Below are positions 5,826-57,757 of a DNA stretch of 64,000 nucleotides, one piece after another. The stretch is from contig CM000207.1 in assembly GCA_000002445.1 (NCBI GenBank), positions 1,024,001 through 1,088,000 on the forward strand, written 5' to 3'. The DNA is from Trypanosoma brucei. Lineage: Eukaryota. The notes below the pieces were generated by a model that searched no databases, was not told the origin of the DNA, and was given only the letters and a program-made list of their open reading frames with translations. Each line of letters starts with the position of its first letter. The stretch's first letter is position 1. The position numbers were made by a program, and so were the translations under genes.

Positions 5826-5876
5826 GTGTGTGTGTGTATGTATGAATGTATGTGTCTCTCTCTCTCTCTCTCTCTT
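5826..5876. repeat. Compound (GT)n / (GTAT)n / (CT)n microsatellite
   Basis: gtgtgtgtgtgtatgtatgaatgtatgtgtctctctctctctctctctc read directly. Confidence 0.9.
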
Positions 5877-7540: not shown

Positions 7541-7582
7541 TGTTTGTTTTGTTTTTGTTTTTGTTTTTGTTTCTCTCTCTCT
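7541..7582. repeat. (TGTTTT)n followed by (CT)n microsatellite
   Basis: tgtttgttttgtttttgtttttgtttttgtttctctctctct read directly. Confidence 0.85.
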
Positions 7583-36200: not shown

Positions 36201-36591
36201 CAAACGAATACGAAACTGCACATTTCGCGACCGGTTTGCTTCTGAACGTTGCCACTGTTTGAAGCAATAGAGTTCCAACCGTATCGTCTCCTTTAAACCT
36301 TTACTTCTTATCTTGATCTGACATTTGTTCTTGAGGTTGTATTTAATGTTGCGATAACTGGCTGCACGTACCTTCCAAAGTGGGCAAGACAGTGCGCCAG
36401 AGGGGGGGCGGTGTGAAGTGCTTTTCGCTGCCATCCACATGCACGTGAAGTGGCAGCAAACACCCCTTTAAACGATAATGCGACCCTGTTGTGTTTTCTT
36501 GTTTTGCTCCTTCTACTCTTTACTTGTTTGTGACATAACCGGAATAGCAAAAGGTTACCACCTCTAAAAAAGTTAAGGCGAGAGCTACGAA

Positions 36592-37470
36592 ATGCACAAG
36601 CAAGGGTTGACATACAAATATGGGAATGAGCCGCGAGTTTTTCCTGAGAGACGGAAAAGGGAGCGGCCGCCGCCTTTCCAACCCCTTGATCCCCAAAGAG
36701 ACCTGGCAGCAACGGCGGAGATTAAATCAGCGGCGCAGACCCTTATGGCAGTGCCCCCCGATTGTTACGGTGCTCAACACAGTTCAGTTAAGCGCCCCGC
36801 GTACGAACACCGCCGCGAGTCATTTAGAAGAAGCGGGCACCGGCGAAGCCAAACAGAAACTGAGCAACTTAGCGTAGAGCAACGCAATTTCACCTCCCGG
36901 CAACAAAATGAAGGATGCAGCACGCAAGATGTAGAGGATGGAGCAGTGAAGACAACGACCCATCAGCCAGAGGTTCCACCGATGGAGGCGAAGCCCCCTG
37001 AACCCAGTCCGCTCCAGGAGCTGTTACGACGAATTATCATATTTGAATTCTCTTCGAAATGCACACAGCGCTCGATCAACGTTGTGCGGACCATTTGTGA
37101 TACACTGTGCAAGAATCCTGCCGGTGTGGTTGAAGCAATGCTAGTCATAGAGGGGTGCTTTGCTGATGCTTTGAAAGAAAGGAACCAGCAAAGACTACTC
37201 CACTATTGGTATATAGTGGACGCCATAATGAAGTTATTCCGGGACAGGCAGCTTATGCTCGAGGCGGTCTTCGTCGCCCTGCCTCATCTTCTTCTTGTGT
37301 ACGTACCCTGGAATAACAGCAAATTGGCCATGGAGCCGTGGTTCAATCGGGAGAAGGACACCGAAAATTATAAAAACTTGTTTAATGTGTGGGAGTCTAT
37401 TGTGCCCGAAAAAATTACAAACGACATCAAGAAACTTTGGCAAGATGGATTCCCTGTGGGAATCCACTGA
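36592..37470 (+). CDS. Hypothetical protein (292 aa) with a C-terminal helical region weakly resembling a CID/ENTH-VHS-type domain
   Basis: ATG at 36592. Basic, low-complexity N-terminal half. The C-terminal half (LQELLRRIIIFEF ... LFNVWESIVPEK) is predicted all-helical. The CID-like assignment is tentative. Confidence 0.65.
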   Translation: MHKQGLTYKYGNEPRVFPERRKRERPPPFQPLDPQRDLAATAEIKSAAQTLMAVPPDCYGAQHSSVKRPAYEHRRESFRRSGHRRSQTETEQLSVEQRNFTSRQQNEGCSTQDVEDGAVKTTTHQPEVPPMEAKPPEPSPLQELLRRIIIFEFSSKCTQRSINVVRTICDTLCKNPAGVVEAMLVIEGCFADALKERNQQRLLHYWYIVDAIMKLFRDRQLMLEAVFVALPHLLLVYVPWNNSKLAMEPWFNREKDTENYKNLFNVWESIVPEKITNDIKKLWQDGFPVGIH

Positions 37471-40400
37471 GGGGGGCACTTCAGTGATTGGACACGAGCG
37501 AACGATGGGTCACGCAGAGTGGAAAAAAGATGGCGCCAGTAGTATAATTACATGACAACGACAAAATGTCGAAAACTTAACCGTTAGGAAGAGACCCCAC
37601 AGGAACGTCCCCGTAGGACGACGTACTGGAAAACTCTGACCGCCTTTTCGCCTACCGCGTTGCTAACCGATACACAGTAAGTAATCGTTTTCCGAAAGAG
37701 AAATAGCATCCTGCCTTTAGGTCATACATCATTTTCAGAGCCCTGGTTTTACCTCGTCAACTCTTGGAGGGCAAACCGTCACGGTTATCAAGCGCAGGTG
37801 AAGACCTATGTGTTCCACGCCTGCAAAAACACAAAAGAAAATGAGAGGTATAAGTGTGCTCAGAATTTAACACGCCCCCGGGGACCGTCGGATGCAACCA
37901 CAGACGACAAAGGGACACACCGAGCTGCAAGGCTCTTCGCGGTTTCCTCAAATTGGGATAGGTCCCTGGGTGCGTCGAAGCTTCCCATCTTCCCTGGATC
38001 GCACCCCTCCCTCCCACACACACCACCCACAGTTCCGCTTTTCAGATGGGAAACCCCCTTACCCCATCTTCCTTCATACCGTGTTCAGCCGTAACGACGT
38101 TTATAATTTAAACAGCAAAGCATATAATTGTACTCGAAGTGTTTCCATTTTTTGACGTTCTCTCAGGACAAGAAAAAATTTAGTGTGCAGCGGCGTGGAA
38201 GCAACAGGGTCTCGCATTGTATCTCGTGCGGCGTGGGAAGAGAAAGCCCGCAGAGGTGGGGATTAGAGACGGCATATAGTGAGTGTTGGCGGATTCGGGA
38301 AGACCGTCTGTCGCTGGTTATCCGAAATGTGTCTGCACATCTAAACACGGCGGTGCAGACGCCTTGTTTTCGTCTTAGTGTTTTGTTTGGCGGGTAACGT
38401 TATCTAGGAGAAGACAGGTTCAAGCTTACTCTGAAAGGCAACACGATAAGTAGGGATCTTCGACTTTTTTGACCCCCGAAAACGATAATACTCTAGGAAG
38501 AGATGAAGAAACGGTAGGATTACATGTGCTTTGGAGATTTTCATCTTTTTTTTAGGGGATCTGACGAGGGGAATGACCAAACTTTGCCCATTTTCATGTG
38601 AAATCCAACAATCCATCATGATTCTTGTCTTCATCTCATGCTTCAGAAGGGCGTCACAAAAAGTATGTCTTTGAAACTAGGAGTAGGTTGAAGGCAATGT
38701 TAACCACAAGACCTCAGCGACCCTTCATGGGTGGACAACTGGTGGCAAGACCCATAAGTTCTCACAGTGTTCGTCAGACGGAGTGATCAGATACCATTTT
38801 CTTTTGACTGGAAACCACACTTTGGTACGTAACTCAATTGTACCGAGGGCACCTTAACTATGGAACAAACAAAACTCATGATGCATCCTGAAGGTGGTAC
38901 CAAAACTAACTTTTGTTCTTTACGATACTTCACGTGCCTTTCACCAAGCCGAAGACTGAGGGCTTCCACAGGGCATTTGACGATGCACGAGTGACCCTTC
39001 GGAATGAATGGCTGAAGTTGGATGAAAGGCAAATCAATTATGCATCAGCAGTGTGTGATGGCCCATGCATATCTGGTCGGAGAAATTTAAAGATCCAACA
39101 AAAAGCATACTTGCAAACATTGGGTTCAAGGGGTCGCATGAATCAGCTTCGGCAGCACATCAACGTACTGGGGCTGCAGATAAAGCAGATGCAAGCTCAA
39201 ACGGATCGGGTGAAGGTGTCGCTTGCCCGGAAGTGGAAACAGGCTGGACCTCTTTCCAGCCGCACAAGGCGTCAGCGATAGGGCCGTATGGAGCATTATA
39301 GCACAACTCGTTATGCACTCGTGCCCAATGGCATGCTCAAACAACGAAACCGATAGCGACCGTTGTGGCGGTGAACACCCCAGGTGACACGAAAGTATTG
39401 GAATCTACACTAAGTGAGTGGAAAGGGTGTACCGCGTTTCCAACGAGCTGAAACCCCCTCCGCGGAAAGGCGCCAACACGTTACCCCGTCATGCGGGTTA
39501 TGAAAGAGATGTTTCCCTCGCTCAACACAAGGAAGACCCCACAAGGGGATTGGAAGGGTCTCTTAGGTAAGGCTATGTCACACTTGAAAACTTCAGAAAA
39601 CGAGGTATCAATAAGCAGTACCGGCCCACGATCCCTATGTTGCGGCATTGGCTTCAGAAGCAATTCACATCACCAAGAGTGTATGGACACAAACGAGTTG
39701 GGAACAAAGTGTTTCCATAATGCGGGGATTTTGCAATTCCTTAACAAAGAATAATCCATAGCCTCGGGAAGAAAATGCTTCTTTGCGTATTGTAAGCTAA
39801 TAATTGGCCAGGGGCGGTGCGGTGTGATATACCAGAACCTTATTGACGTTGCTAGCCACAGTAAAATCATCAGTTCATATGTTTTTAGCCGGCCCTCAAA
39901 GGAAGGCGGCCGCAAGCCACACAAAACGAGTTCACCCCATGGAAAGCTTGGGAATTGGATCTTATCGGCGAGTTGTTAACTCTAGAAAACGATCGGGTGG
40001 ACCAACGACCCGTCTGAGTGACAGTCAGTTGATGGATGGAAATCGCGTTGCCCAAAAAAGAAATTTTCATCCCTCACCCTCGAAAAAAGGGCGCTCTGAT
40101 TGTGGATTGGAGGGCCCAGCCGAAGACGCACAAGCCCAACTCACACATAGAGCGGTATGGTATGTGGTGATCGGGGGAGAAGATGCACAAGGGGTAAAAG
40201 CTGTAATCAAGAGCATGGGGGAGGGGGAACGGCTCTCAGTGCCAACCGTGAGGGAAACGGAAAGCGCTCTCCGACTATGCGGCACGACGGGGCATCCCAT
40301 ACAAGAGGCGCGCTAGCGCATGCAATTGCAGCGGTGATCGAAGGCGGTCTCAACACCCGATTGGCGGTGCAGTTATGGGAAACACGCGAACCCTCTAGAG

Positions 40401-43400
40401 TTGCCATGAAAAAACACAGATCGCCGCATAGGGTCTCGGATAGCCCTAGAAGGCAAGTCCGCTCACCTGACACCATATATGTGGTAGAAGCGGTAAGGAA
40501 AATGGGCAAATTCACCGTGGATAGTTCCGATCAGAGGACATGATAGGGGGCAACTCTTCCAATGGCATTGCACCGAACGACGCACTCACCGTGCACGGGT
40601 GGAAGATAAAGACGACGAACGAAGGCCGCTGGCACAGCATGTGAACGTGGACATTCCATCCTTGAACTGAGTCCTGAGTCGACTAAAATCAAAGGAGCCT
40701 GAAAGGTTTGGGGTGCAGTGTGGAACGTTAGGAAACAACCAAATATCTCGAGGAAAGAGCGAGGAGGAAGGAGGGGCCCTTTGAGGACAACAAATGCGGA
40801 TGCTCAAACAATGAAACAGGCGGGAGTTGCTTAAACTGCATCGAGGTTACCAACCATGGGGTGAGTGGCGCCTTTTGCTATCGCTGGGGAGAAACTGTTG
40901 GGGTCGCGGCGGCGTTTCATAGCCTGGTCAAAATCAAAAAATGAACAGGAAGACTGCGGGACGAGGGTTTCTTTGGGTTACATTTCCCTGTAATTTGGGG
41001 GCAGTTTGTATTAAAATCACTGCCATTTCTTCGTTTGAAGGAGGTTATTTTCCAAGTAACTTTTCCAGAAACGCAGAAATTTCCGTTGTCGCGTCGGAAA
41101 ATAATCCTGTGGATGGCGGCTCACGCGGGGTGAAGGTCTCACCGCCGGACATAGCGAAGGGGACTGTGGGAGGCAGATTAGGGGTGCTTTCAGTACCTCC
41201 TTTTCGCCCGTTTAAAAGCCACTAGCCTCCTTATAATCTAAAGTTAGGATTTTCAATAAGGACCCTCAACAATGCAAATGATGGATATGATGGTCGCAAC
41301 GGAAGTTCGATATGAGTTTTTTTTGTTCCAACACACTCCTTACTTAACAAAGAGGTGGGGTATAGACTATTCTATGGAAATAAGTTAATCGCAGCTAACA
41401 AGGATGTGGCCAGCCCTTCCGCTTCAGCCATCTTGCACCGTTTGGACATGATCATGAAAAGACGGTCGCATGCCCAAAGGCGGGCCAAGGGAGCATCGTG
41501 GTAAAACATGATGTATTCTAAGATATCACCCCCTTGCTTCCCTTTCCGCAACTACTTAGGAAATAGGGCCATTCATCGGATCTTTCATTCGGTGTCGAGT
41601 AGGTTGCCAAATGTTTTCATGCGAAAGCGAAACATTGATCCTTTGTGACTAAAAGCCTCCCCTAATAACCACACCGTAGTATGAAGGTTAGACGGCGGCC
41701 GTTTGACGGTTCTCTGCCGAATGTTTCACGGAATCTCACGTCATATGTGGGAAACTATGTCACTGATTTTGCCTTTAAAAAAAAATGATATGATGGAATA
41801 CTTCTTTATTATTTATTTAATTGCTGCTCAATTTATGTAAACCTTCTCAATCTTTCAATGCATATTTTTCTCGATCCCCCACCATTCCCGTGCTTAGAGG
41901 AAAACGATACTATTTCCCGTGGTAATTTACTTCGTCGTTCCGTGAGCATTTGTTCCCTACCCCAAACAAGCCACTTGTTTCCACATATTTGAACAACAGG
42001 CCCCAATAATCCTTCCAATATTTCCACTGAACTACCGCCCTAACTCTTTTACCTTACACACAATCGGCAACAAAAAAAAACATCTTTCAACGAACTTTTC
42101 TCTGCGTACCAAGAGGTCCGTGGATTGGTGACGGCCCGCCTGCACGGGGCTGCGGGCCCTAAATCATTGCTCAGCCGTTAACGGACCTGCTGCGGGCGAG
42201 ATGGCGCGCTGTTGCCATGGCACTTTCCCTGGACCCACAGCTCGCCAAGCAGGTGGCAGCCACTTGTCCGCTCCCGACCCAGCAAGCCGCTAAACAGTAA
42301 TGTCACGCTGGGGCGGCTGTTATCATCGCGACCTCAGTGCTCTCATTTTTTTTTTCCGCGTCGGTACCCACGCAGGTGGATGAACCCTCCCAGGAGGGTT
42401 TTTACCTGTTGGAAGGGTGAACCTCCTCTGAAATTTTCTTTAAATTTTGCTGTGCGCATACGCTACTACGAAGAAATGCGAAGGAAAGTCAGAAGGGGAA
42501 AGCGGAGGCTGAAGCGTTGAATGGTAAAAAAAAAACATAAAGAGAACAGATATTATTAAAGTGGAAGGTCACAGTTTGAAGTTTGCAATAACAACGAGTG
42601 TCAGCAGCAGCCGGCAGCAGGAATGAAGAAATATTTAGAGAAGTGTTTGTCGTGGGGGGAGAAGGCCGAAGGAGGAAGCGCCTGAGCTTTTTATTGAGTC
42701 TGATACTGTAAATATCAGTGTTCTGCTTTCTTCCCCATCAATTTTTCATTCCTAAACATTGGTTTGCTGGCCTTTTCTCGGTGAAACGAAACTGCGAGGT
42801 GGGCGCTTTTCATTTGTCTTCAAGTTTCCCCCTTACAAAGCTCCTCAACAGTTGGTCTTATTCTGGAACGACCTTACAGTTTAGCCATCTCTATTCCCCA
42901 GCACCCTCTCCCAGTACAACACATGACCCTTTCTTTCCCCCTCTTTCGTCCCGCGCGCATCTCAAATCTACCCTCCGCGTTGTCCAATATATGTGGAAAG
43001 ATGCTCAGTGTCCTGCTGCACGGTTTCTTTTATGTTTCGGACAAGGTTTGCACTAATTTTCCAAAGTTTCCTATCCACGCCCTTTTTGAGGTCCACAGGC
43101 ATCACACATTTTCCCCACTTCTCCTCTAGATCCTCCCCAAGGACCAATGTTTCCCTCCTTCCTGGTACTCTCGAAAACCAACTGACCTCCCTCCATCAGA
43201 CCATTTCAATATTCAAAGCACATCCTCCGATAACTCCCAGCACTGCTGAAAAACACTCCTGAACCACCCAGTCGAAAAATAATCACAATTAAAAACGGCC
43301 CCTTTATCCCCCGAATTTGCTTTATATACAGCGCTTCGAACTCTTTTGTACCGCCTTTCCCATGGCGATGTCAATCATATCCACGTTGCGGCATGGCCCG

Positions 43401-44253
43401 CCACTCCGCTCAGGTGATGAAAGGCAAGCACCCGCATCTTATTCCGTTGGAGTGGATCGCGGCGGAAGGGCTTCAGCACCACACCAAAGCTTAGACTATG
43501 ACAAATGCGCTACACAGCAGGCGCCATCATAGGAGGGTCCCTGGGCACGTTCTGACTTCCCGCAAACGGTGCCATCCGCAGGAAAATGCTGGGCAGTGCA
43601 GACGTCAATTAGAATCCCGGGTGCTTTTTTTTTCGGTATAAATTGGAACGTTGCTGCGCTCTTAAACGAAGTGAGCAGCACCCGTCACCGCGTTGCCTTC
43701 AGCCGCGATGCAAAGAGAGATATACCTATTCCGATCCCTGAAGATATCCTTCTGGAGGTGAACTTCTCGAAGGGTTCATTACACGATCATTTCCATTTTG
43801 CGGTATGTCCCATACAAATACTCGAACTAACACAAGCCTCCGCTTTTCCCCTCGTCGAAAAGGAGGGTACGCCAGAGAAAAACTTGACGATCTCCTTCAG
43901 GATGGTCCACGAGTATTTGGTGACGATCCCAACTTTCATTCTCTTGTGCCATAGATGTCTCCCCCTATGCGGTGGAAGTGGCTTCACAGCTCGACTAAAC
44001 GCAGAAAATAAAAACACCGCCGGAAAGACCCACGAAACTGTGTGTTAAGACTTGGGCCAGGGGCGCTGGTCCCACATACGGTGTAATTTCTTGAAAAGAC
44101 TGTTTTGTTGCGAAAAGGAGCCCTCAACCCACGGCGTAAAGCTGCCGTTCGATCATATTCTTCCACGGCCACGTCGGGTCGGACGAGCCGCTATTTTCAC
44201 TGCAAATATCCTTACAAGCATCGCATCAGCGGAAATACCATAACTTGTGGGAA

Positions 44254-44805
44254 CTAGAACTCGCCACGCAGGGGAAAACTGAGACGATTAAGGAAGAGGG
44301 ACATATCCACAGTCACGACGACGCGCTTGCAATCATAGTTTGCGAGGCGCCGATCGCCGCAGTCTGGCAGGTAGAACAATATCCATAAACCTTTCCCCAT
44401 GGACAAAGAGGTGGCTGAAATGGAAAATAAGATTAATAACACCACGGAAAACACTGAACGGAATCGTCCTGTAACGCAGGGTCGACCGCATTTATTACCG
44501 TGCTCGATTCCCAACGTTGTCGAAACAAGTTCTTCAAAATGAGCATATCTGACAAGAAAAGCCTGAAACGTCAGCAGGCGAGTTGTAGCCTGCTCAGTGG
44601 AAACCTCGGCATGAGGATCGCACTGCACGAGAGAAGAATAGGAGCATTTTCCTTGTAACTTCGACCACTTCTGGAGGGTCAAATTCTGATCTGTCCTGCT
44701 TCCCGAGCGGCACTCACCATCACAAGGATGATAGAAGAATTTTGTGAGAGCACCTGACAACTGATTGACCAGTGAAAGTACCAGAAGTAATTTAAAAAAC
44801 GTCAT
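44254..44805 (-). CDS. Candidate minus-strand gene: 183-aa protein with an N-terminal signal peptide, 8 Cys and an internal hydrophobic segment
   Basis: The only sizable minus-strand ORF not overlapping a + strand gene. Starts MTFFKLLLVLSLVNQLSGA. On the minus strand, about 75 nt upstream of the ATG, there is a T11 tract followed by AG dinucleotides (seen on the + strand as 'gcaaaaaaaaaaacg' at ~44863-44877). Confidence 0.4.
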   Translation of the reverse strand: MTFFKLLLVLSLVNQLSGALTKFFYHPCDGECRSGSRTDQNLTLQKWSKLQGKCSYSSLVQCDPHAEVSTEQATTRLLTFQAFLVRYAHFEELVSTTLGIEHGNKCGRPCVTGRFRSVFSVVLLILFSISATSLSMGKGLWILFYLPDCGDRRLANYDCKRVVVTVDMSLFLNRLSFPLRGEF

Positions 44806-47730
44806 CCTCTTTAATGCCTATTCCGGAGCATCTCATACAGTGGCCCAACGCGGAGGGTAGTGCAAAAAAAAAAACGTAAAGTTGGTGGAGAAACCCGCCC
44901 GCCCTCCGTCCAACCTCCTTTCAAACAGTGCTAAAGGCGGCACGATACTTAAGCAAACCACTTTCCTAACGGAAATAACTCAAAAGAAAATGGGCAAATG
45001 GCACAGCACCAGGCCCCCTCCACTGTTAGTAAGCGCAGCGAACTTCCTTCCCACTTTGAGGGAGCGTCGCAAGAGATAATATCCAACCCCGACTTGGCAT
45101 CTTCGAAAGCGGCCTGGCGATAAGGAGAGGAAATGAAGATGTGTCTTCAGAAGGGACTGAATATTGCAGCCGTTATAGGAATCCGCATTTACTCCGGCAG
45201 ATTGATCATGAACAAAACAGGGTGTGTGGTGCTCGGGGGACGTTTTGATCTCACAGTTGCGCCGGCAGTCGCTGGCAACCGCTTCAAAATGAGCTTTTCT
45301 TCCCTTCGCTCAAATATTGATGATCTTTTGTTTGTTTTACCTCCTCTCACAAATGAAGAACACGGTGGTGAACGCAAACTGGCGTTGCCACTCTCCATTA
45401 CTCCAAGCATGCATCGCACAAATACACGCGCACAGCTTGTGTATATACGATATCGCGTGATCATGCAGGGCTTTTCAAATATCAGCGACACACCATTGAT
45501 ATTCATGCCTTCTTAACTCTTTTTCACCCAATCTATCATTCCACATCATTTCTCCCACTAGAACACAATGGTATGGAGTAATAATGTGAGGTGAAGCACA
45601 TACATATGATGTGAGAAGGAGAGGTGTGACACTGTAGTGTTTCATCCGAAGGAAGAGTTAACAAATAACATATACAGTAGCCACACCTCCCATATTGTGC
45701 ACATAATGCCTCATGGTATATTATTAGTATGTACAGGGGAAAACTATGTCGATATATTATAACAAACCTTCACAGCCACAAAATATACGGTTTGCATTAT
45801 TCTCACATTTCTAGAAAAGCGGCAAACACAAAGGAGCTTATTATCATATTCCTATAAATTCCCCATACGTGTGCAAGCTGTCCCCTCAGCATATAATATA
45901 TTGTGATATGGTGAACATAACCCCCCACCAGTGCGACAAATATGGGATCTATGTAAATATAAATAAATATACACTTGCCTCTTGGACATATTGGATGTCA
46001 TATACAACAGCATTTGAGTTGTATTCTCTGTTAGGCCAACTTATGTATATATAATAGAGTGAGGCCTTTCCAGACTGTGATGAAATGAGTTGGTGTGTAT
46101 TAATGACAACTCTCCCAAGGCATACGGAAGAGATACTATTTCCCCTGAGGGCTGCCGAATCTTTCCTCTGGAACTTTGCCCTGGGGGCTCCGATGCATTT
46201 TGACGCCCTAAGGGATCCAGCAGCGCATTTTCGTTCTGAACCGGCAATGTCCACACTTCAGCGATGCTGGTGGGCTGCGTCCATACTTCGTCCTATGCAG
46301 CCTCCTTTCGTGAGATGGCCTCGCATTTCGACTCGGCTCCGTTTTGCAAGATTCCCGCCTCCCCGCAAACCTCCAGTACACGATGAAAGTTGAGGCATTT
46401 CTTTTTCCCATTGAACATTCAACTTCCGCGCGTGGCACTGCACCGCCAAGACTTCAGTCGCTTACTAGATGCAAGTCCATTCGTGTCATTCCAATATGCC
46501 GGTAACCATGGAGAAATGGTCATTCCACTTTCCAAAACCCTCACGTACGTGCGTTTTACTTCTGATGGAGGAGAAAATAAAAGAGTTACTGCGTCCTCAA
46601 CAATCATATTTACGAAGTAACAATGCCTCGCTATCCGATGAACGACCACCCGCATTCCGTTAGTCTCTTTAGGAAATGGCATTTGGGTTCTTATTGATAA
46701 GCAACAACAAAACACATTTGCATGCATTTATATTCGAAAGGATGCGTGCGCGAGGTTACTTTACCCGACTTATGTTATTTGTCGATGCCGTTTCGATATA
46801 ACAAAAAAAAAGGAGGTTGGCTCTTTTTCTGAGTTCTAGGCAAGGTGCTCGACGCTGACACATTGGTGAGGCAAGTGCCGAACTGTGGAAAGACTATGGT
46901 TTGATCAGCGAATTGCTGCGGGGGATGCGGCGGTGGTTGGCACGGGCTCGTGTTGCTGTCGCCTGAAACGTTCTCTGCGATGTCACCGCCGGTATGAGTT
47001 TGTTGTGGTCGGGATGCTCGGATGCCGATTCTTTGTGGGCTTTGAGAAAGAACGTTTTGATTCCCCACCGCTGGTAACCAGGGATGGGTGTCACGTCTAG
47101 TATCTGATTGTGGTAGGAAGTGGAACAATAGAAATGTAGGTTAGTGGTTTCCCAATCGGGCTGGTAACAGGCTCAAATTGTTTAAAAAAATCAGTTTGTG
47201 AGGTAGACTACCGGTGTGAATAGGGGAGTTCTTCCGCATTTGACTTCTTTGACTGCTTGCTGATCTTACGTTCTACGTACCTTTTCCAAGAAACTGAAAG
47301 AGGGATCGGTGCCCTTACTATGCAGAAGAGGTATTGTTGGGCATCTGCTATTCGCCTTAGTGTTTGTGATTTTATCATTTAAGAAATTGGTGCATTGCTC
47401 AGTAGCGCCTGAAGTGTGTGTGGGGATTAGTTGATACTGTAACGAAGAAAATCGTTTTTGTTATTTCGTGAGCATTACAGCTTTTTATTTTTAAAGGTAG
47501 AAGTTCTTTTCAACCTCTTTGGAGTGCCGGATACAGTATGAATGACTACTAATTGAGGGTTGATTCCTGCGTTGCCTTCCTAACAAAATGCTTTCCAGCA
47601 CTTCATCTACTGTTTCATTTGTTAGTAACTCTTTTTTGGTTTTTGTGACCCTGATTATTCATGAGGGAGATGAGGGGTAGTGAATTACGTGGTTGTGTTG
47701 CTGTGTTTAGGCAAATGTACGTGACTCGAG

Positions 47731-47768
47731 TGTATGTATGTATGTATGCATGCATGTATGTATGTATG

Positions 47769-47802
<34 letters not shown>

Positions 47803-47803
47803 G
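47731..47803. repeat. Compound (GTAT)n-(GCAT)2-(GTAT)n-(TA)n-(GT)n microsatellite
   Basis: tgtatgtatgtatgtatgcatgcatgtatgtatgtatgtatatatatatatatatatgtgtgtgtgtgtgtgg read directly. Confidence 0.9.
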
Positions 47804-48511
47804 TGTTCTCTTAAGAATGTGTACCTACACCACACGCGTTGTACATAGAGTTAGATGTGGAATTACATTGTATTGGTGCGATCATATCACTCAGCACCGT
47901 TGTTTTTGTTCGTATTTCATTTGTCTGATTGCTTTATTACATATTTCCCTATTGATGTGTTATCAAGGGGCATACAAGGTTATGTCTGTGTCGCTTTGGC
48001 GGACATTTTACCGCGAAGCGGAGCATAGTTGAAGTGAATGTGGCGCGCTAATAACCTGAGATATGTTACTATTGTTGGTACGGTGCGTGGTAGATTGTTG
48101 CGTCACATTCCCACCGTTGTTTGGATGGAATGCCCATGCACGTGATATTTGCGGCTCCTTTCCTCCTTTTTTAACATAATGATTTTTATGGCAGCGGAGG
48201 GTCCTTGCAGCATTGCCATTTGACGTGTTGCACGCAGACCCTTCAGAGTAAAGGACCGTTTGTTAATTGACGACGGGCTATGCGAGGTGCAGTGCTACTT
48301 TCTCTACAAGGACAAAGGACGTGTGTGCGTGTGATATTTAGTTCTTTCATTTTAATTGCATTTCCCCTTGACTAACGTTATTTGATGGCACGCCCCCTGC
48401 AAAGCACGATATACAACAAAAAATTTTCTTATCTGCAGCAGTGAAAAGTTTTTATTTTTTCTGATCCATTTGACTTTTAGTATAAAGGGCAAGGTAAAGT
48501 TTGGTTACCCG

Positions 48512-48513
<2 letters not shown>

Positions 48514-48540
<27 letters not shown>
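48514..48540. repeat. (GT)13 microsatellite
   Basis: tgtgtgtgtgtgtgtgtgtgtgtgtgt read directly. Confidence 0.9.
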
Positions 48541-48543
<3 letters not shown>

Positions 48544-50968
48544 CATTGGTTTGTTGAACTCAAGGGATTTTCAAAGTTTTGTTTAGAGATCTTTTTTTAG
48601 TTACTACGAAGATATTTAATTTTCCCAGTCCTTTACGGCTCATTTATAGATAAGATGCTTTGTGTAACTTCAGCTATATTTCTTTTGGACAGAATAAAAA
48701 ATAGCTGCGTACATTCCACTCTTTCCCACAATATAAGGCACGTCACTTTTTATATTCGCACGATATGCCGTCTCTGTTTCCCAACACATGTGCTTAGTTT
48801 CACCGACTCAGCTGAACGCTACGGTTTGGTTTGGTTGTGCGTCCTACTTGGTTGTCATCTCTTCCTGTTTTCGTTTATAACTAAGGAATACACAGAAGGA
48901 TGGACTAGAACTCAAAACGCTTTGTGCCGTCCGTCAAATAGATAGATGCCTCTCGCAACGCCCTAAGTTCTTGATGCCTTGTGAAAGGCCAATGAAGGTA
49001 TTAACACAGAAACTTCAATGCAGGAACCAAGGGAAGAATGGAGATAAGTTGGTACTGGAGAGATGTTTTTCGTGTTGTCTTTTTGTTACCTTCGTCTGAT
49101 GCGTTCACAGTGGTTTGGGTATTATTAATGGCGTACCCTGTAGCTTCTGGTATTTTTGGCTGCGTCAGTCGGCCAAAGTTTCAAGTTTTTTTTAAAATAT
49201 TTGGATACCAAACGGACAACGTAAGGTGGCTGGAGCATAAACAAAAACACTCTATTATTCACAACGCTCTTTCTTTCGGTTTTCGAACCAACTGGAGGAT
49301 AACGAATGCTGTACCGGTGACGCAGTGTCGCGGGCAATGCAATGGACCTAAAAAGCACTGAGTACCAAGGTTACTAGCTGACCACTTGTTAGGGGTGTGG
49401 GTTCGTCTCCCATGTGGCGCTTTCCTCTCCCGGGGAATGGCAGCACGTTAAAGGACTACAAGTGCTGACCATTGAAAGTAAATGACACGAAGGCGAAATC
49501 AAACAGGATGCGGTAGCATCATCTCCATGTCCACGCACCATGAAATTTGGAGAAGCGATGTAAAGTTGTATCATTCTTTTATTGGCTCCAGCGCACGTGT
49601 CTTACATGTTGGATGCTTTGGTGTATGTTTCCCATGAGGTGACACATTCGTCGACCTCACGGGACCTTTCGTGTTGTTTATACCACCAATCACCACAATA
49701 GGAAGAAAAAGCAATCATCTTCATGTGAACCAATGGCCGTGCGACTAAGTAAAAGCTTAGCCGTGTATGGAAGATGCCACCTTCATTTCTTGTCGTGTAG
49801 TGACAACATCAATGATTACTATATGTGTTCTGTTTCATCTTCCACCGCAATGATCGCTTTTACGATTCCCGCTTATGCGGGTGGATTGCATGTATGTTTT
49901 GATGAGGTGATGTTTGATCCTATTCGTTTGAATCACTTATGATCGCAGGTTCAAGATGTTCGATACATTTGCCAATGGGAGATGACACAGCACCCTCTTC
50001 TATTGATCATTATGGTCCATAATTGGCGTGTATTCCCTTTCTTTTTCCCTTTCTTTTTTTTTTTGCAAAAAAAAAAAGGAAGCTCATGTGAACTATGCAA
50101 CACCCACTGTCTCGTGGAGGGGCTCTAAATTCTATGTTCTTAGTAACAATCAATTCTTTGCCTTCCCCCAAGGTGTCGGTGAAAGGTTGACACCAGCTAT
50201 CGTCTTTAGTGTGTTGTCCGCCACGGGAAATGCTGCAAGTGGAAGGTGTTATGCCGTTTAGCTTGGACGACACCATTGGGTGATTTTCAGGTATGAAACT
50301 TACGACTCATTAGTCGTTACATGGAGTGTAAAACGGATGAATGTACCTGCCGTTTTGCCCCACACGGACCGTTGCAAAAGGCACAAGACACATGTTCGGC
50401 ACTCCAGCAGTTTGAAATGGGGGTGACACTTCGGAAGACATGCCGTCCTCAGAGTTTTTTTTTGTAGGAACGAATGGAGAGGCTTTTGAGTGTTGGGAAA
50501 ACACGGGATAGTCTTCGAAGGAGGAGTTACTGAAAGTCAGTAGGTGGTGGTGTGCCCTCTTGCTCTCAGCGCACTTTACCGATTCCAGTGTTAAGCAACA
50601 TTATGGCAAGCCCTGATTATTGGAGCAATTCTGGGGAGGCTCGACCTGCGGGTGTCTCCTCGGAAGTTGCTATGCCAGTTATCACTTCCTCTGTAGAATA
50701 TAATGTTTATGGTTATTGTTGGTCTATGGAACTATGTCTGTTGTTTGTGTGGAGTATATGCTGGTCGCAACTTTTTTTTGCTTTTGTGTGTGCGTGTGCG
50801 GATCACTGCTGTTGAATGTGCTCACCTTCATTTTCCCTACAGCAAACTGCTGATCCGACATCTGATTTTGTCTTTTCCCCCATCGAAAACATTTACATAT
50901 CTGTCGGCATTTCTTTATAAATTAAATATTCGGCATAGTTTGCGCGTTTCGTATCCATTTGGTGAGTG

Positions 50969-51415
50969 ATGTCTCGAGTGTACGTTGGTAACATTGAAAA
51001 ACGTGCAACAAAAAAGGAACTACTTGAGTTCCTGAAACCAATGGAGGAACATATCGAGGACTCGTGGTTAGCTCGGCGACCTCCGGGGTTCGCCTTCATC
51101 ACAATTGCTCCGTCTCGTGCGTGTGAATTCGTGGAGACTTTCAACGGAAAGGAGTTTCGTGGAAAGGCTCTTTTGGTTGAGCTGTCCACAATGTCGTCAC
51201 AGCGGAAGGACGGAGAGAACCGCCGCCGCCGAAGCAGTGATAGCAGACGTGATAGCAGTCGACGCAGGAGGAGGTCTGGAAGCCGCTCAAGGCACAGTGA
51301 TAGACGGCGCGACCGGAGTCGCAGCCGCAGTCACCGGCGGGACCATTCAAGAGACAGAAAGCGCCGTTGCCGCTCACGCAGCCGTAGTAGCTCTCAGGGG
51401 CCTTGTTCCCCGTGA
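50969..51415 (+). CDS. SR protein with one RRM and a C-terminal RS domain (SRSF3/SRSF7-like)
   Basis: The ORF track begins at GTG 50966; ATG at 50969. RNP2 VYVGNI, RNP1 PGFAFITI, and WLARRPPGFAF...LVELS is collinear with SRSF3/7. The C-terminus is RS/RD dipeptide-rich (RRRRRSGSRSRHSDRRRDRSRSRSHRRD). Confidence 0.85.
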   Translation: MSRVYVGNIEKRATKKELLEFLKPMEEHIEDSWLARRPPGFAFITIAPSRACEFVETFNGKEFRGKALLVELSTMSSQRKDGENRRRRSSDSRRDSSRRRRRSGSRSRHSDRRRDRSRSRSHRRDHSRDRKRRCRSRSRSSSQGPCSP

Positions 51416-51758: not shown

Positions 51759-53714
51759 ATGGAAGGAAAAAATGAGAGAGACCAATACCAGGATTTGGCA
51801 CTCCACTTGAGTTTCTCATCTGGTACAGAGTTGAGCGATTCATATGTAATGTCCTATAGGGGCAGCGATGGGTGTTTTGGCGATGCTGTGTTCAATGGTG
51901 CCGCACCCGCTCGGAACGTCCTCTTTGGGAACATTCCATGCAAACAAAGAGTGGAAAAGTTTAGTATTCAGGATAGCAGCTTAGCGAATCGGTGTAACAT
52001 GCAGGTAAACTTAAAGCGTGACACACCCGTTCTTCAAGACCCTTCGGACACATTTGCAAGGATGAATCAAGTGATGCACCAAACTTTGAAGTATGTAAAG
52101 GAGGTGGAAAGTATTGATTTTAGTAGCAGTAACATAATAGATTTCAACGGTGAAATCATGGAGGACCCAAGGAGAGTGTTTCTTTCGGTATGCACCAGTG
52201 TGTTTGCTAACTTCTCGTTCTGCTCTCAGTTAGATGTAGAAAAACTTCTGAGTTTTCTATCAGATATTTTCGAGAACTATTCTGAAGACAATGCTTATCA
52301 CAACGCGGTCCACGCGGCTGACTCGGTTCAAATGTTGTACCTCATATTGAGGGAGAAACCTGCAATCCTGTTATTTACCAACGAGGAGATTCTTGTTTGC
52401 TTTTTGGCTACGCTTTGTTTGTCATTCATACACCCAGGTGTAACAGACGCGTTTCTGGCACGCATTGACCACCCGCTAACCCTTGTTTACGGTGACGTTA
52501 CAACCCAGAGGTCAGCAAGCCTTACGGCCTTCCTCTACTTCCTTAATAGAGAGGAGAACCGTTTCATAGATCTGTCCTCCAGCGCTGGCACTCGTCCCAT
52601 TTCCCAATATTTGAGGGAGTTGTTGGTTGAAACGGTTCTGGCAACTGCTCCTCGATCCCGTAGGACGCTGCTGAGTGATCTTCAGGATGTGGCGGCGTCT
52701 AATGTGGTATCGGTGGATGACCTTAGGTTCCTGCTCTCAGCGATTGTGACTCTATCGGATAGTGCGCTAGCATTGCGCCCGCGGGCACAATTTATCAGCT
52801 GGTCGCGGCTACTTTGTGCTGAGTGGCTGAGCGAGGCAACTCAAGAAGAGAGGAGAAGGATGGACCCACTCGTGCCGAACCTCCAAAAGCGAGTCGGTGA
52901 AGGTGGACTCACGATGGTATCGGATTACTGCCGGGTGTGGCTACGACCTGTGGCTGCTGCGACCCGTGCACTGGTTCCGCAGGACCTTTACGACAATTTG
53001 GAGCGAAACAGTGATGTCCCCACTTTTGGTGAAGTTGCAGCCTTCTCTGTGCCGGATGTTTCGGCTGATAAGCCATGGAGTGATGGAAGTTTATCTGTTT
53101 TTGAGATTCTTCGCAAGGTGACTATGCATGCAAAGTCTTTGGACCGAAAGGCCTCAAAGCGTGCCATTCTCAACGCAACATGTGGGCGTCTGGTATCGGC
53201 CCCCGCGTCGCAATTGTCATCACCGTTCCATGCACCTTCTGAACCGTCGATTTCGTGCTCTCCGGTGGAGAAATTGGTTTCTCATCCAAGCCGGTGCGAG
53301 CATTACTTCTCGTTTTTGCGGCTTTACGACACTTACGACAGAGAGGGCCGTCCCGCAACCGAGTTTGCAGAGCAGCTAGTTTTTTTAGCGATGCAGCTGA
53401 ATCCTGATTATGTTGGGCGTTACGCTCGCGAGGGCATAGATGCGTCTTCTAAGGAGGACTGCAGCAAGATTGCGTCCCTTATTATCCAAAGTGAAGAGGC
53501 ACCATCCACCGCGGAGGTGATAGCATCCCCATTGCGCGGGGCTGAGCAGACCGATGGCTTCATTTTGCGTTTGATGGAGATGTACACCGAACGCGACAGA
53601 AACAGAAATAATTGCTCCGTCCAGAATAGCCACACAAACCTTCAGTCGACTTCGAGGTGCCTCTTGCCTTGCTCCAACCCCGTATACGGGGGTATGGACC
53701 GTGGAAGAAAGTAG
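51759..53714 (+). CDS. Class I cyclic-nucleotide phosphodiesterase-like protein with a degenerate catalytic site (predicted non-catalytic PDE homologue)
   Basis: The track start is TTG 51750; ATG at 51759. YHNAVHAADSVQ (52296-) matches the PDEase_I YHN..HAADV.Q motif. At the HD..H position the protein has LSFIHPG (L-S at 52419-52424) instead of HDVDHPG, and YGDVTTQRS replaces YND..LENHH. Confidence 0.8.
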   Translation: MEGKNERDQYQDLALHLSFSSGTELSDSYVMSYRGSDGCFGDAVFNGAAPARNVLFGNIPCKQRVEKFSIQDSSLANRCNMQVNLKRDTPVLQDPSDTFARMNQVMHQTLKYVKEVESIDFSSSNIIDFNGEIMEDPRRVFLSVCTSVFANFSFCSQLDVEKLLSFLSDIFENYSEDNAYHNAVHAADSVQMLYLILREKPAILLFTNEEILVCFLATLCLSFIHPGVTDAFLARIDHPLTLVYGDVTTQRSASLTAFLYFLNREENRFIDLSSSAGTRPISQYLRELLVETVLATAPRSRRTLLSDLQDVAASNVVSVDDLRFLLSAIVTLSDSALALRPRAQFISWSRLLCAEWLSEATQEERRRMDPLVPNLQKRVGEGGLTMVSDYCRVWLRPVAAATRALVPQDLYDNLERNSDVPTFGEVAAFSVPDVSADKPWSDGSLSVFEILRKVTMHAKSLDRKASKRAILNATCGRLVSAPASQLSSPFHAPSEPSISCSPVEKLVSHPSRCEHYFSFLRLYDTYDREGRPATEFAEQLVFLAMQLNPDYVGRYAREGIDASSKEDCSKIASLIIQSEEAPSTAEVIASPLRGAEQTDGFILRLMEMYTERDRNRNNCSVQNSHTNLQSTSRCLLPCSNPVYGGMDRGRK

Positions 53715-54020
53715 CGGAGCGATTGCTTCCCCGTGTATGATATTTATGGAAGTGCTATGTATACGATCGTAATTGTTGCGCGTGTAGGGAACTCTTCCCC
53801 CCTTTGCATTTTATATCTTTCAAACTTATTTGGTGAATCATCGTGCCAAGGTAACGGTGGTGATGAGACCACAGAATTTTCTCCTTTTATTCCTTTTCCC
53901 GATTTTTTCAACTGTTGGCCTTGTCGATTTCTGCGGTCACTTCCTTCCTGTTACCGTGTCTGGCAATGCGATCAGTGACTTCGACTGCTGGCTGTGTCTT
54001 TGCCCTTGGTTTAATTTGCA

Positions 54021-54072
54021 TTTTCCTTCTTTCTCCTCCACTACCTTAATTACAACGGTATGGTATTTGCAG
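54021..54072 (+). promoter_or_regulatory. Polypyrimidine tract + canonical AG acceptor ('tttgcag') 7 nt before a small-ORF ATG
   Basis: ttttccttctttctcctccactaccttaattacaacggtatggtatttgcag, then ggactc, then ATG (54079). Confidence 0.5.
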
Positions 54073-54078
54073 GGACTC

Positions 54079-54282
54079 ATGGGCCCACGCATGGCCGGTT
54101 TTCTGTTAGGTTCGGTTGCTGCTGCATCGGTGGCGGCTTTCCTCGTGCAGTACGACGTACTTCGTAGAAAGGACATAACAGAGAGGGAGATTGATGATAT
54201 GGAAACCCAAGCTGCGCTGGTTAAGGATCGTTTTTACCGGGTGCAGAGCAGGTTATTGGAATGTCAGGGAGGTGATGAATAA
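54079..54282 (+). CDS. Candidate small protein (67 aa) with one predicted transmembrane helix
   Basis: MGPRMAGFLLGSVAAASVAAFLVQYDVL is a hydrophobic helix followed by a charged tail. There is a strong acceptor signal just upstream. The track ORF 53830-54282 starts at a TTG inside the polyY tract. Confidence 0.4.
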   Translation: MGPRMAGFLLGSVAAASVAAFLVQYDVLRRKDITEREIDDMETQAALVKDRFYRVQSRLLECQGGDE

Positions 54283-57039: not shown

Positions 57040-57757
57040 TGCCTTTGTGGAACAGAAATTTTGATGCAAAAGGGAAGGAAAGAAAGTGGTAGCAGTTAAG
57101 GGATTGGGGAGGAGAGACTGTAGCTGATTAGTTATAAAAATATGATGAGGAAAATAAATAAACGTGCATATGTAGTTTTCCTTTCTTTGTTCCACTCTGC
57201 CCCATTTGTTGTGGTATTTTTAGCGCGCACTTTAGCGTCTGTTGTTCCTAACGTTGTCACTAGCTCGCTCCATATTCGTGTTCACGAGTATGTTGCCTTT
57301 CATTCGTGCATGACGAGCAAGCAAATTAGTTGCCAATAAGTGACGTGGTGCCGAATGTACAAATCCCCCTAAGAAAAAGGGCACCGAAGGATAAAAACAG
57401 GAGGGGAGGAGAAGGGGTAAAGTGTGAATGGCTGATTTTATTGTACGATTTCCCCTTTTTTTTATTTTTTCCTGCCTTATAATCCTAGGGCATAACGCCA
57501 GCGGAGTAATTTTGATACATCGGTACACTTCTATACACGTGCGTACGCACATACAGGGAAAGAGGGGTGAGGGCGTTATGAGAGGCTGGAAGGGTAGGGA
57601 TAGTTACGCTACCACTGCGTGCATTTGTTATGTGCTTTGGCCGTTTTTCCCCAAGTCCTTTGACGTACGAACCCTGACCCCTCTTTTCTCTCTTACCTCT
57701 TTATCCTCATTTGCACTTTTTTTTTTGCTTCAAAAATGTGTACCACCCTTTAGAGCA

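What the first reader, a model, noticed from the sequence alone, without database searches (positions are those of the whole stretch)
37471..50968. 13.5-kb gene desert splitting the + strand gene array, with a lone minus-strand gene: candidate embedded termination/initiation pair
Twenty-one + strand genes flank a region with no + strand ORF over 160 codons. 37.5-44.2 kb is largely devoid of + strand polyY tracts, and 44.3-44.8 kb carries the only credible minus-strand ORF (with its own polyT-AG signal on the minus strand). This implies convergent transcription ending around 37.5-44 kb and divergent initiation between 44.9 and 50.9 kb. Such an internal head-to-head/tail-to-tail pair would be a chromatin landmark.
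Basis: inference. Interest (0 to 1): 0.6.

Follow-up and report, generated by a model that had tools for sequence, protein, structure and literature searches.

The report
Same-strand transcription stop-and-restart gap
The 13.5-kb gene-free stretch is real: on Trypanosoma brucei chromosome 9 one long same-strand gene array ends and the next begins at a start site mapped in 2010, while the lone opposite-strand "gene" is a chance open reading frame, so this is an ordinary, already documented landmark.

Summary
The window is T. brucei TREU927 chromosome 9, GeneDB v4 positions 1,024,001-1,088,000. The desert (37471-50968) is real. It has no Pfam domain, tRNA, Rfam RNA, internal repeat or ingi/DIRE similarity.

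Published 5'-triphosphate RNA-seq (Kolev 2010, Table S14) ends one + strand transcription unit at the 292-aa gene (36592-37470). It starts the next + strand unit, typed "Internal", at ORF 49038-49361, about 2 kb upstream of RBSR1. No processed transcript was detected between 36.4 and 50.1 kb.

A G+T-rich block with (TGTA)18 and (TG)14 lies just upstream of that start (46.75-49.0 kb). PNUTS knock-down de-represses a desert ORF.

The minus-strand ORF (44254-44805) is no longer than chance allows. It is annotated "unlikely", has no detectable transcript, and is split by an ingi element in T. b. gambiense.

So a termination/initiation pair exists, but head-to-tail on one strand. It is not a convergent plus divergent pair around a minus-strand gene.

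New context: the gap is a synteny breakpoint relative to T. cruzi and T. theileri. It also carries a decayed VIPER-like retroelement fragment (about 39.6-41.0 kb).

Verdict: already known, low interest.

The parts
36592..37470 (+). Last gene of the upstream + strand polycistronic unit (292 aa, EAN76709; inferred to be Tb09.160.4950). Orthologues exist in T. vivax and T. cruzi. In T. cruzi it is the last + strand gene called before the strand switches.
   Evidence: Exact protein match. The ID is inferred from consecutive EAN/XP numbering anchored. The unit ends at Tb09.160.4950. Orthologues.
37471..46750 (+). Silent zone with no detectable processed RNA on either strand; presumed Pol II termination region for the upstream unit. 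The exact termination point is not mapped here.
   Evidence: All annotated ORFs here are in Kolev Table S2, the list of ORFs with no detectable transcript. No novel transcript lies between 36,355 and 50,079. No Pfam domain on either strand. Divergence from gambiense is 1.33% against 0.73-0.75% in the flanks.
39617..40987 (+). Degenerate fragment of a VIPER-like tyrosine-recombinase retroelement (end of the recombinase region and start of the RT region), with in-frame stops.
   Evidence: tblastn with T. cruzi L015 element ORFs: E = 5e-10 (40703-40987) and 7e-6 (39991-40406). With T. vivax L018 18287-18778(-): E = 9e-12 (39669-39938). Calling it VIPER is an inference.
44254..44805 (-). Chance ORF (183 aa; Tb09.160.4990, EAN76714, 'hypothetical protein, unlikely'); not a gene.
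   Evidence: Split by an ingi in T. b. gambiense.
44423..44434 (.). Target site (GAAAATAAGATT) that is duplicated around a 5,208-bp minus-orientation ingi retroposon in T. b. gambiense DAL972. The site is empty in this window.
45133..45516 (+). 127-aa ORF (Tb09.160.5000; inferred to be Tb927.9.6830). Silent in wild type; Lister 427 genes mapped to Tb927.9.6830 rise 3.7- and 5.7-fold on PNUTS RNAi.
   Evidence: Table S2; Kieft 2020 S4 Table. The mapping of the new ID is inferred from consecutive numbering.
46751..49000 (+). G+T-rich block on the sense strand (G+T 0.57-0.63 in most 500-bp windows, 0.56 at 48001-48500), containing (TGTA)18 at 47731-47801 and (TG)14 at 48513-48540. Candidate dispersed Pol II promoter region.
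   Evidence: GT-rich tracts are a described property of T. brucei initiation regions (PMC12227686).
49038..49361 (+). Tb09.v2.0050, the first annotated ORF of the downstream + strand unit typed 'Internal'. The true start site lies somewhere upstream of it.
   Evidence: Table S14. Kelly 2012 gives 7,457 bp from the midpoint of Tb09.160.5060 (55951-57039, midpoint 56,495), which lands exactly on 49,038, the start of this ORF.
50079..50814 (+). Tb9.NT.40, from Kolev's set of trans-spliced, polyadenylated novel transcripts. It is the first novel transcript listed (Table S7) after the gap.
   Evidence: Kolev Table S7 coordinates 1,074,079-1,074,814 minus the 1,024,000 offset.
50969..51415 (+). RBSR1 (Tb927.9.6870 = Tb09.160.5020), the first conserved gene of the downstream unit.
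   Evidence: Synteny with T. cruzi and T. theileri.

Best explanation
The desert is a head-to-tail boundary between two RNA polymerase II polycistronic transcription units on the + strand of T. brucei chromosome 9.

Proposed sequence of events:
1. Pol II transcribing the long upstream unit (Tb09.160.3470 to Tb09.160.4950) passes its last gene (36592-37470).
2. It terminates somewhere in the next 8-9 kb. This step is inferred. It is expected to depend on H3.V/H4.V/base J chromatin and the PNUTS-containing termination complex.
3. That stretch therefore yields no stable processed RNA. This is shown by published RNA-seq.
4. A G+T-rich, microsatellite-bearing block at about 46.75-49.0 kb acts as a dispersed promoter region. 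This step is inferred from composition and position.
5. Pol II re-initiates there, and productive + strand transcription begins with ORF 49038-49361, then the non-coding transcript at 50079-50814, then RBSR1. This is shown by the published unit table and transcript lists.
6. Any antisense initiation from this intrinsically bidirectional start region gives no stable mRNA. The minus-strand ORF is a chance ORF.

In evolutionary terms the gap is a synteny breakpoint. The left block ends at this same gene in T. cruzi and T. vivax. The right block (RBSR1, PDE and onward) is preceded in T. cruzi and T. theileri by a 2,561-aa gene that is absent from this window. The non-coding filler includes a decayed VIPER-like retroelement and evolves nearly twice as fast as the flanks.
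For: Identity and coordinates: exact protein matches to TREU927 chromosome 9. The window-to-v4 offset of 1,024,000 comes from eight ORF coordinates in Kolev Table S2. RBSR1 = Tb09.160.5020 = Tb927.9.6870 and TOPIBS = Tb09.160.5070.

Unit structure: Kolev Table S14 lists 3470->4950 (+) followed by v2.0050->5330 (+, Internal). Kelly 2012's distance for Tb09.160.5060 reproduces 49,038 exactly.

Silence of the gap: all desert ORFs are in Table S2, and no Table S7 transcript lies between 36,355 and 50,079.

Dependence on termination machinery: genes mapped to Tb927.9.6830 rise at least 3-fold on PNUTS RNAi.

Promoter-like composition: G+T is 0.57-0.63 in most windows at 46.75-49.0 kb, and the peak windows (0.60-0.63, about 46.75-48.25 kb) exceed the window's 95th percentile of 0.599. 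This matches the published description of GT-rich dispersed promoters within 5-10 kb start regions.

No alternative content: no tRNA, no Rfam family, no Pfam domain, no ingi/DIRE similarity, no repeats.

Synteny.

Relaxed constraint: 1.33% against 0.73-0.75% divergence from gambiense.
Against: - I could not retrieve direct chromatin data (H2A.Z/H4K10ac, H3.V/H4.V, base J) for these coordinates, so the termination point is inferred, not mapped.
- Lack of processed RNA could partly reflect the scarcity of splice-acceptor polypyrimidine tracts rather than true termination.
- The transcript data come from cultured procyclic forms of one strain.
- The equations Tb927.9.6830 = ORF 45133-45516 and Tb09.160.4950 = the 292-aa gene rest on consecutive ID numbering.
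- Genes here did not appear in the held supplementary text of the two H3.V/base J mutant papers I searched.
- High G+T is not unique to this block in 2-kb bins: 0.568 at 1-2 kb and 26-28 kb, and 0.583 at 60-62 kb.
Confidence: 0.85

Rival explanations
1. A real minus-strand gene (44254-44805) forms its own small unit. The region then holds a convergent termination zone (37.5-44 kb) and a divergent, two-gene-direction initiation zone (44.9-50.9 kb).
For: The ORF is the longest in the desert and has a T12 tract plus AG upstream on its strand. The minus strand is mildly G+T-rich at 42.75-46 kb, mirroring the + strand block. Kolev reports that all Pol II start regions show antisense 5'-triphosphate reads.
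Against: No detectable transcript (Table S2). No minus unit listed here, although single-gene minus units are listed elsewhere. ORF length is within chance. No domain found, and the only identical or near-identical copies found are in Trypanozoon. Annotated 'unlikely'. Disrupted by an ingi in T. b. gambiense.
Confidence: 0.04
2. There is no real termination. Pol II from the upstream unit reads through the whole desert, which yields no mRNA only because it lacks processing signals. The 'internal' start merely adds polymerases.
For: Both strands of the desert are poor in polypyrimidine tracts. I have no direct termination marks for this site. No genes from this region appear in the held supplementary text of the two H3.V/base J mutant papers I searched.
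Against: Kolev split the array into two units here. An ORF inside the desert is de-repressed at least 3-fold when the termination factor PNUTS is depleted, which implies + strand RNA is normally kept low there. Head-to-tail sites are defined in the field by H3.V-marked termination followed by an H2A.Z peak.
Confidence: 0.1
3. The desert is a fossil of another chromosomal element, such as an inactivated centromere-like or ancestral chromosome-end region. The transcription boundary would then be secondary.
For: The gap is a synteny breakpoint. It contains a VIPER-like remnant. In T. cruzi the orthologous gene is followed by a VIPER-like element and a DGF-1 gene on the opposite strand. That resembles the L1Tc/VIPER-rich, strand-switch, core/disruptive-boundary setting reported for T. 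cruzi centromeres. A right-block small protein (Tb09.160.5040) is matched to L. major LmjF04.0035, whose low gene number suggests a chromosome-end position.
Against: No AT-rich tandem array and no ingi/DIRE, the hallmarks of T. brucei centromeres. VIPER copies are widespread in T. cruzi, so co-occurrence may be coincidental. No kinetochore or replication data were examined.
Confidence: 0.05
4. Assembly artefact: the gap is a mis-join or filler sequence.
For: Short-read T. equiperdum contigs break inside the region at about 39.06, 40.54 and 45.55-45.98 kb.
Against: T. b. gambiense DAL972 is collinear across the whole desert at 98.3-99.2% identity, apart from one ingi insertion and one microsatellite-bounded indel. 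T. equiperdum contigs cover almost all of it at 99.7-99.96%.
Confidence: 0.01

Closest known systems
Head-to-tail (HT, 'internal' or non-strand-switch) Pol II transcription unit boundaries of T. brucei (Siegel 2009, not readable here; Kolev 2010; Kieft 2020)
   Same: Same-strand genes on both sides. One unit ends and the next starts on the same strand. There is no real antisense gene. A GT-rich start region is present. The intervening DNA is silent and is de-repressed on PNUTS loss. This very site is listed as 'Internal' in Kolev Table S14. Such sites make up 62 of 191 start sites.
   Different: By my recollection the gap is larger than usual for such sites; this was not measured here. It lacks the tRNA, snRNA or rRNA gene that accompanies the boundaries typed 'next to tRNA/snRNA/rRNA' in Table S14. 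It coincides with a synteny breakpoint and a retroelement fossil.
Divergent and convergent strand-switch regions
   Same: The same chromatin logic is expected: H2A.Z/H4K10ac at starts and H3.V/H4.V/base J at ends. Initiation is bidirectional at the level of 5'-triphosphate RNA.
   Different: The coding strand does not switch. The only minus-strand ORF is spurious.
Retroelement-rich strand-switch and centromeric domains (T. cruzi L1Tc/VIPER regions of about 10 kb; T. brucei ingi/DIRE plus AT-rich repeats)
   Same: A non-coding domain of about 10 kb at a unit boundary, holding a degenerate VIPER-like fragment. It is a target for ingi insertion in a sister subspecies.
   Different: No tandem AT-rich array and no ingi/DIRE in this strain. 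GC content is ordinary (0.41-0.51 in 2-kb windows). There is no evidence of kinetochore binding.

Membership tests
Head-to-tail Pol II PTU boundary (TTS followed by same-strand TSS) | Protein-coding genes on the same strand on both sides of the gap | tested here: met
   All conserved genes flanking the gap are on the + strand.
Head-to-tail Pol II PTU boundary (TTS followed by same-strand TSS) | An experimentally supported start of a new same-strand unit (5'-triphosphate RNA, or an H2A.Z single peak) | tested here: met
   From the literature rather than my own data. Kolev 2010 Table S14 lists unit Tb09.v2.0050->Tb09.160.5330 (+) as 'Internal'. The position is cross-checked by Kelly 2012's distance. 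The H2A.Z peak itself could not be retrieved.
Head-to-tail Pol II PTU boundary (TTS followed by same-strand TSS) | No annotated or real gene on the antisense strand at the start region (Kieft 2020 definition) | tested here: met
   The minus ORF 44254-44805 has no detectable transcript, is no longer than chance allows, is annotated 'unlikely', and is split by an ingi in gambiense.
Head-to-tail Pol II PTU boundary (TTS followed by same-strand TSS) | Termination of the upstream unit marked by H3.V (plus H4.V and base J) | not testable with these tools
   Indirect evidence only: the unit ends at Tb09.160.4950, there are no transcripts for 12.6 kb, and PNUTS RNAi de-represses Tb927.9.6830.
Head-to-tail Pol II PTU boundary (TTS followed by same-strand TSS) | GT-rich tracts on the sense strand of the start region | tested here: met
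   G+T is 0.57-0.63 in most 500-bp windows at 46.75-49.0 kb, against a window mean of 0.52 and a 95th percentile of 0.599. (TGTA)18 and (TG)14 lie within the block.
   Listed in Table S2 as having no detectable transcript. No minus unit appears in Table S14. ORF length is within chance.
tRNA/snRNA/rRNA-associated internal boundary | A Pol III or Pol I gene at the boundary | tested here: not met
   ARAGORN found 0 genes. Rfam gave 0 hits at gathering thresholds. Kolev types the site 'Internal', not 'next to tRNA'.
T. brucei centromeric domain | AT-rich tandem repeat array with ingi/DIRE elements at a strand-switch region | tested here: not met
   Only short microsatellites are present. There is no ingi protein or DNA similarity. 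GC is 0.41-0.51 in 2-kb windows.
VIPER (tyrosine-recombinase retroelement) remnant | Protein-level similarity to the recombinase and RT regions of VIPER copies in other trypanosomes | tested here: inconclusive
   Significant tblastn matches to repeated T. cruzi and T. vivax elements (E from 7e-6 to 9e-12). By my reading of the ORFs, those elements are ordered as a zinc-knuckle ORF, a recombinase-like ORF and then an RT/RNase H-like ORF. Pfam gave only a weak RVT_1 hit (E = 0.096) and source names were uninformative. Naming them VIPER rests on architecture and on VIPER being reported in these three species.

The most novel reading that the evidence does not exclude
The internal promoter may have been born at an evolutionary breakpoint.

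In the T. brucei lineage a rearrangement may have cut the RBSR1-PDE block from the gene that precedes it in T. cruzi and T. theileri (a 2,561-aa inositol-5-phosphatase-like gene). The block was then placed behind an ancestral unit end, the 292-aa gene, which also ends its array in T. cruzi and is followed by at least 10 kb without called genes in T. vivax.

The promoter-less block would then have acquired a new Pol II start region from GT-microsatellite-rich filler DNA. In T. b. gambiense the same spot has become a (TG)n tract of about 230 bp. That would make this locus a natural experiment in how sequence-poor dispersed promoters arise.
Probability: 0.3. Interest if true: 0.5.

Novelty: already known. 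Interest (0 to 1): 0.22.

Why it matters
That is a useful validation of the scan. The site itself has been in the literature since 2010 as an 'Internal' start and belongs to a class that makes up about a third of T. brucei start sites.

The added value is modest:
- The boundary coincides with a synteny breakpoint.
- It contains a fossil VIPER-like element.
- It is structurally polymorphic between subspecies, through an ingi insertion and a collapse to a GT microsatellite next to the promoter block.

Together these make it a reasonable locus for asking how GT-rich start regions arise and tolerate change.

Tried and rejected
1. Degenerate ingi/DIRE. tblastn with the three ingi ORFs recovered from the gambiense insertion gave nothing better than E = 0.12 in the desert, and blastn found nothing there.

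2. Decayed protein-coding genes. All stop-free segments of 45 aa or more on both strands (12,289 aa) gave 0 Pfam families at E <= 1.

3. RNA genes. No tRNA and no Rfam family.

4. Internal or tandem repeats. None beyond two microsatellites.

5. I first assumed that the 2,561-aa gene upstream of RBSR1 in T. cruzi was the window's 2,550-aa ORF (17614-25266). tblastn showed no similarity, so the size match is a coincidence.

6. Polarising the rearrangement with Phytomonas. The contig is too short upstream of the PDE gene.

7. Extending the VIPER-like fragment. phmmer and tblastn with further T. cruzi and T. vivax ORFs found nothing outside 39.6-41.0 kb, and there was no nucleotide-level similarity.

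8. H3.V/base J mutant papers. The held supplementary text contains no genes from this region. The Staneva 2021 supplements hold no start- or termination-region coordinates for it.

9. Siegel 2009, Cordon-Obras 2022 and De Gaudenzi 2005 are not held. The cap on the number of papers was reached.

10. TREU927 coordinates by contig look-up failed. They were recovered instead from Kolev's tables.


Full report
**Identity of the window.**
Flanking ORFs are exact matches to T. brucei brucei TREU927 chromosome 9 proteins. These are the 292-aa EAN76709 at 36592-37470, RBSR1 (EAN76719) at 50969-51415, and a 651-aa cAMP phosphodiesterase (EAN76720) at 51759-53714. RBSR1 is Tb927.9.6870 and Tb09.160.5020 (XP_827049). 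The topoisomerase IB small subunit at 57428-58579 is Tb09.160.5070.

Coordinates of eight 'unlikely' ORFs in Kolev et al. 2010 Table S2 match window ORFs after subtracting 1,024,000. For example, Tb09.160.4990 at 1,068,254-1,068,805 (-) equals window 44254-44805. The window is therefore Tb927_09_v4:1,024,001-1,088,000.

**Checking the observation.**
The desert is real. From 37471 to 50968 no + strand ORF exceeds 159 aa. The only ORF of 160 aa or more on either strand is the 183-aa minus ORF at 44254-44805.
- There is no tRNA and no Rfam family at gathering thresholds.
- There are no internal repeats. The only tandem repeats are (TGTA)18 at 47731-47801, (TG)14 at 48513-48540 and a 12-bp unit x2.2 at 50033-50058.
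- Polypyrimidine tracts are scarce on both strands, not just the + strand, and three + strand tracts occur at 42-44 kb.
- The minus ORF does have a T12 run and AGs upstream. An ORF of that length arises by chance in 6-19% of composition-matched simulations of 13.5 kb.

**What the sequence contains.**
No stop-free segment of 45 aa or more on either strand hits any Pfam family at E <= 1. Ingi proteins recovered from a T. b. gambiense insertion find nothing in the desert.

The one recognisable relic lies at about 39.6-41.0 kb on the + strand, where there are significant protein-level matches with in-frame stops. They are to a repeated element found in T. cruzi (E = 5e-10 and 7e-6) and T. vivax (E = 9e-12). 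By my reading of the ORFs, that element's ORFs run in the order zinc-knuckle protein, tyrosine-recombinase-like protein, then RT/RNase H. This is the architecture of VIPER, an extinct retroelement reported in T. cruzi, T. brucei and T. vivax. Pfam support for the label is weak, so the label is an inference.

The desert differs from T. b. gambiense at 1.33% of positions, against 0.73-0.75% in the gene-rich flanks. This is consistent with relaxed constraint.

**Comparison with relatives.**
T. b. gambiense DAL972 is collinear across the whole desert, with two exceptions.
- A 5,208-bp ingi in minus orientation, with a poly(A) tail and a 12-bp target-site duplication (GAAAATAAGATT), is inserted at 44423-44434. 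That is inside the 183-aa ORF.
- The 710 bp between the two GT microsatellites (47802-48513) is replaced by about 230 bp of (TG)n.

The right-hand block (RBSR1, PDE and five further genes) is syntenic with T. cruzi and T. theileri. In those species the gene immediately upstream of RBSR1, on the same strand and 0.6-0.8 kb away, is a 2,561-aa inositol-5-phosphatase-like gene. That gene is not in the window.

The left-hand block comprises the 2,550-aa ORF, a flavoprotein monooxygenase, a methyltransferase, a 333-aa gene and the 292-aa gene. All of it is syntenic with T. vivax. In the T. cruzi contig carrying the monooxygenase (L015) the synteny runs only as far as the 333-aa gene, and the 292-aa orthologue was found on a separate T. 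cruzi contig (L016) with different upstream neighbours.

In T. cruzi the 292-aa orthologue is the last + strand gene called. It is followed by a minus-orientation VIPER-like element, a minus-strand gene and a DGF-1 gene. In T. vivax at least 10 kb without called genes follows the orthologue. The desert is therefore a synteny breakpoint joining an ancestral unit end to a block that is mid-unit in other trypanosomes. I could not establish which arrangement is ancestral.

**What the literature shows at these coordinates.**
Kolev et al. 2010 (PMC2936537) mapped spliced-leader sites, poly(A) sites and 5'-triphosphate RNA in procyclic forms. Their tables give the following.
[quoted passage not shown] The next unit is Tb09.v2.0050 -> Tb09.160.5330 (+), typed 'Internal'.
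- By consecutive accession numbering, Tb09.160.4950 is the 292-aa gene.
- Tb09.v2.0050 is ORF 49038-49361. Kelly et al. 2012 (PMC3376733) took Kolev's start sites and measured from ORF midpoints. They place Tb09.160.5060 (55951-57039, midpoint 56,495) 7,457 bp from its start site, and 56,495 - 7,457 = 49,038 exactly.
- Table S2 ('annotated ORFs not producing a detectable transcript') contains the annotated desert ORFs from 39138 to 48945 (Tb09.160.4960 through Tb09.v2.0040), including the minus ORF Tb09.160.4990.
- Table S7 (novel trans-spliced, polyadenylated transcripts) has nothing between window 36,355 and 50,079. Tb9.NT.40 lies at 50,079-50,814 on the + strand.
- Kolev lists single-gene minus units elsewhere, for example Tb09.160.3410, but none here.
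- They also report that all start regions show sense and antisense 5'-triphosphate reads.

Kieft et al. 2020 (PMC7055916) define head-to-tail sites as places where one unit terminates (H3.V) and another initiates on the same strand, with a single H2A.Z peak and no antisense gene. Their S4 Table lists mRNAs at least 3-fold up after PNUTS RNAi. It includes two Lister 427 genes mapped to Tb927.9.6830, with log2 fold changes of 1.87 and 2.51. By consecutive numbering from Tb927.9.6870, Tb927.9.6830 is the + strand ORF at 45133-45516. The desert is thus normally kept silent by the termination machinery.

**Sequence at the start region.**
G+T content on the + strand rises to 0.57-0.63 in most 500-bp windows from 46.75 to 49.0 kb. 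The window mean is 0.52 and the 95th percentile is 0.599. This block ends just upstream of the first ORF of the new unit.

T. brucei Pol II initiation regions are described as GT-rich, dispersed promoters within 5-10 kb chromatin domains. The right third to half of the 'desert' is therefore about the expected size of a start region. High G+T is not unique to this block in 2-kb bins, so it is supportive rather than diagnostic.

**Interpretation.**
The evidence fits a head-to-tail boundary: termination of the upstream + unit in the left part of the gap, a silent interval, and re-initiation near 47-49 kb.
- The convergent/divergent geometry built on a minus-strand gene is not supported.
- The main remaining uncertainty is where, and how completely, Pol II terminates. 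I could not obtain H3.V/H4.V/base J or nascent-RNA data for these coordinates.

**Novelty.**
The site is already catalogued as an internal start (Kolev 2010). It belongs to a class comprising 62 of 191 start sites. The synteny-breakpoint context, the VIPER-like fossil and the subspecies polymorphisms are incremental observations.

The most interesting reading still open is that the promoter arose de novo from GT-rich filler after a lineage-specific rearrangement.

Noticed in passing
window 44423-44434 (T. b. gambiense L001 17839-20879 plus L008 1-3942): T. b. gambiense DAL972 carries a 5,208-bp ingi in minus orientation here. It has long ORFs of 384, 721 and 579 aa, a poly(A) tail and a 12-bp target-site duplication. 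The site is empty in TREU927 and in the T. equiperdum contig, so this is a presence/absence polymorphism inside the silent zone.
   Followed up: yes
window 47802-48513: In T. b. gambiense the 710 bp of unique sequence between the (TGTA)n and (TG)n microsatellites is replaced by about 230 bp of almost pure (TG)n/(TATG)n. T. equiperdum keeps the TREU927 version. This could be a true deletion or expansion next to the promoter block, or an assembly collapse.
   Followed up: partly
Lister 427 genes Tb427v9_001442700 and Tb427v9_001443100 (Kieft 2020 S4 Table): Two Lister 427 genes, four gene numbers apart, are both mapped to Tb927.9.6830, and both rise on PNUTS RNAi. This hints at a duplication or an insertion within the desert in that strain.
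   Followed up: no
window 4690-9613: This is the second-largest gene-free gap in the window. It is strikingly AT-rich (GC 0.33-0.35 at 5-9 kb) and dense in polypyrimidine and polypurine tracts on both strands (12 and 10 tracts in 6-8 kb). There is no tandem array.
   Followed up: no
window 4288-4589: Four tandem copies of a 75-bp unit (97% matches) lie inside the 726-aa ORF at 2509-4689, giving a 25-residue protein repeat.
   Followed up: no
window 33690-36355: Kolev's novel transcript Tb9.NT.39 (2,665 nt, + strand) spans the interval between the 333-aa and 292-aa genes. It covers the 192-aa ORF called in gambiense at about 35141-35719 and overlaps, on the opposite strand, the 'unlikely' minus ORF at 34759-35232.
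   Followed up: no
window 36592-37470: The 292-aa protein is labelled 'T. brucei spp.-specific' in UniRef. It nevertheless has clear orthologues in T. congolense (58% identity), T. vivax (56% over 144 aa), T. cruzi (44%) and T. conorhini.
   Followed up: partly
window 17614-25266 versus T. cruzi L011 643-8328: The 2,550-aa ORF in the window and the 2,561-aa gene upstream of RBSR1 in T. cruzi and T. theileri are nearly the same size but unrelated. This could trap anyone judging synteny from gene sizes alone.
   Followed up: yes
T. equiperdum OVI loci L002, L007, L009: The short-read T. equiperdum assembly breaks inside the desert at about 39.06, 40.54 and 45.55-45.98 kb. L009 joins unrelated sequence, including a minus-strand GRAM-domain gene, upstream of 45,975. 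This is probably a mis-join or a strain rearrangement.
   Followed up: no
window 53863-54282 (Tb09.160.5040 / Tb9.NT.41): Kolev's supplementary conserved-peptide table aligns a 67-aa peptide encoded here with L. major LmjF04.0035 and a T. cruzi gene. The low L. major gene number suggests that the right-hand block corresponds to an end of L. major chromosome 4.
   Followed up: no
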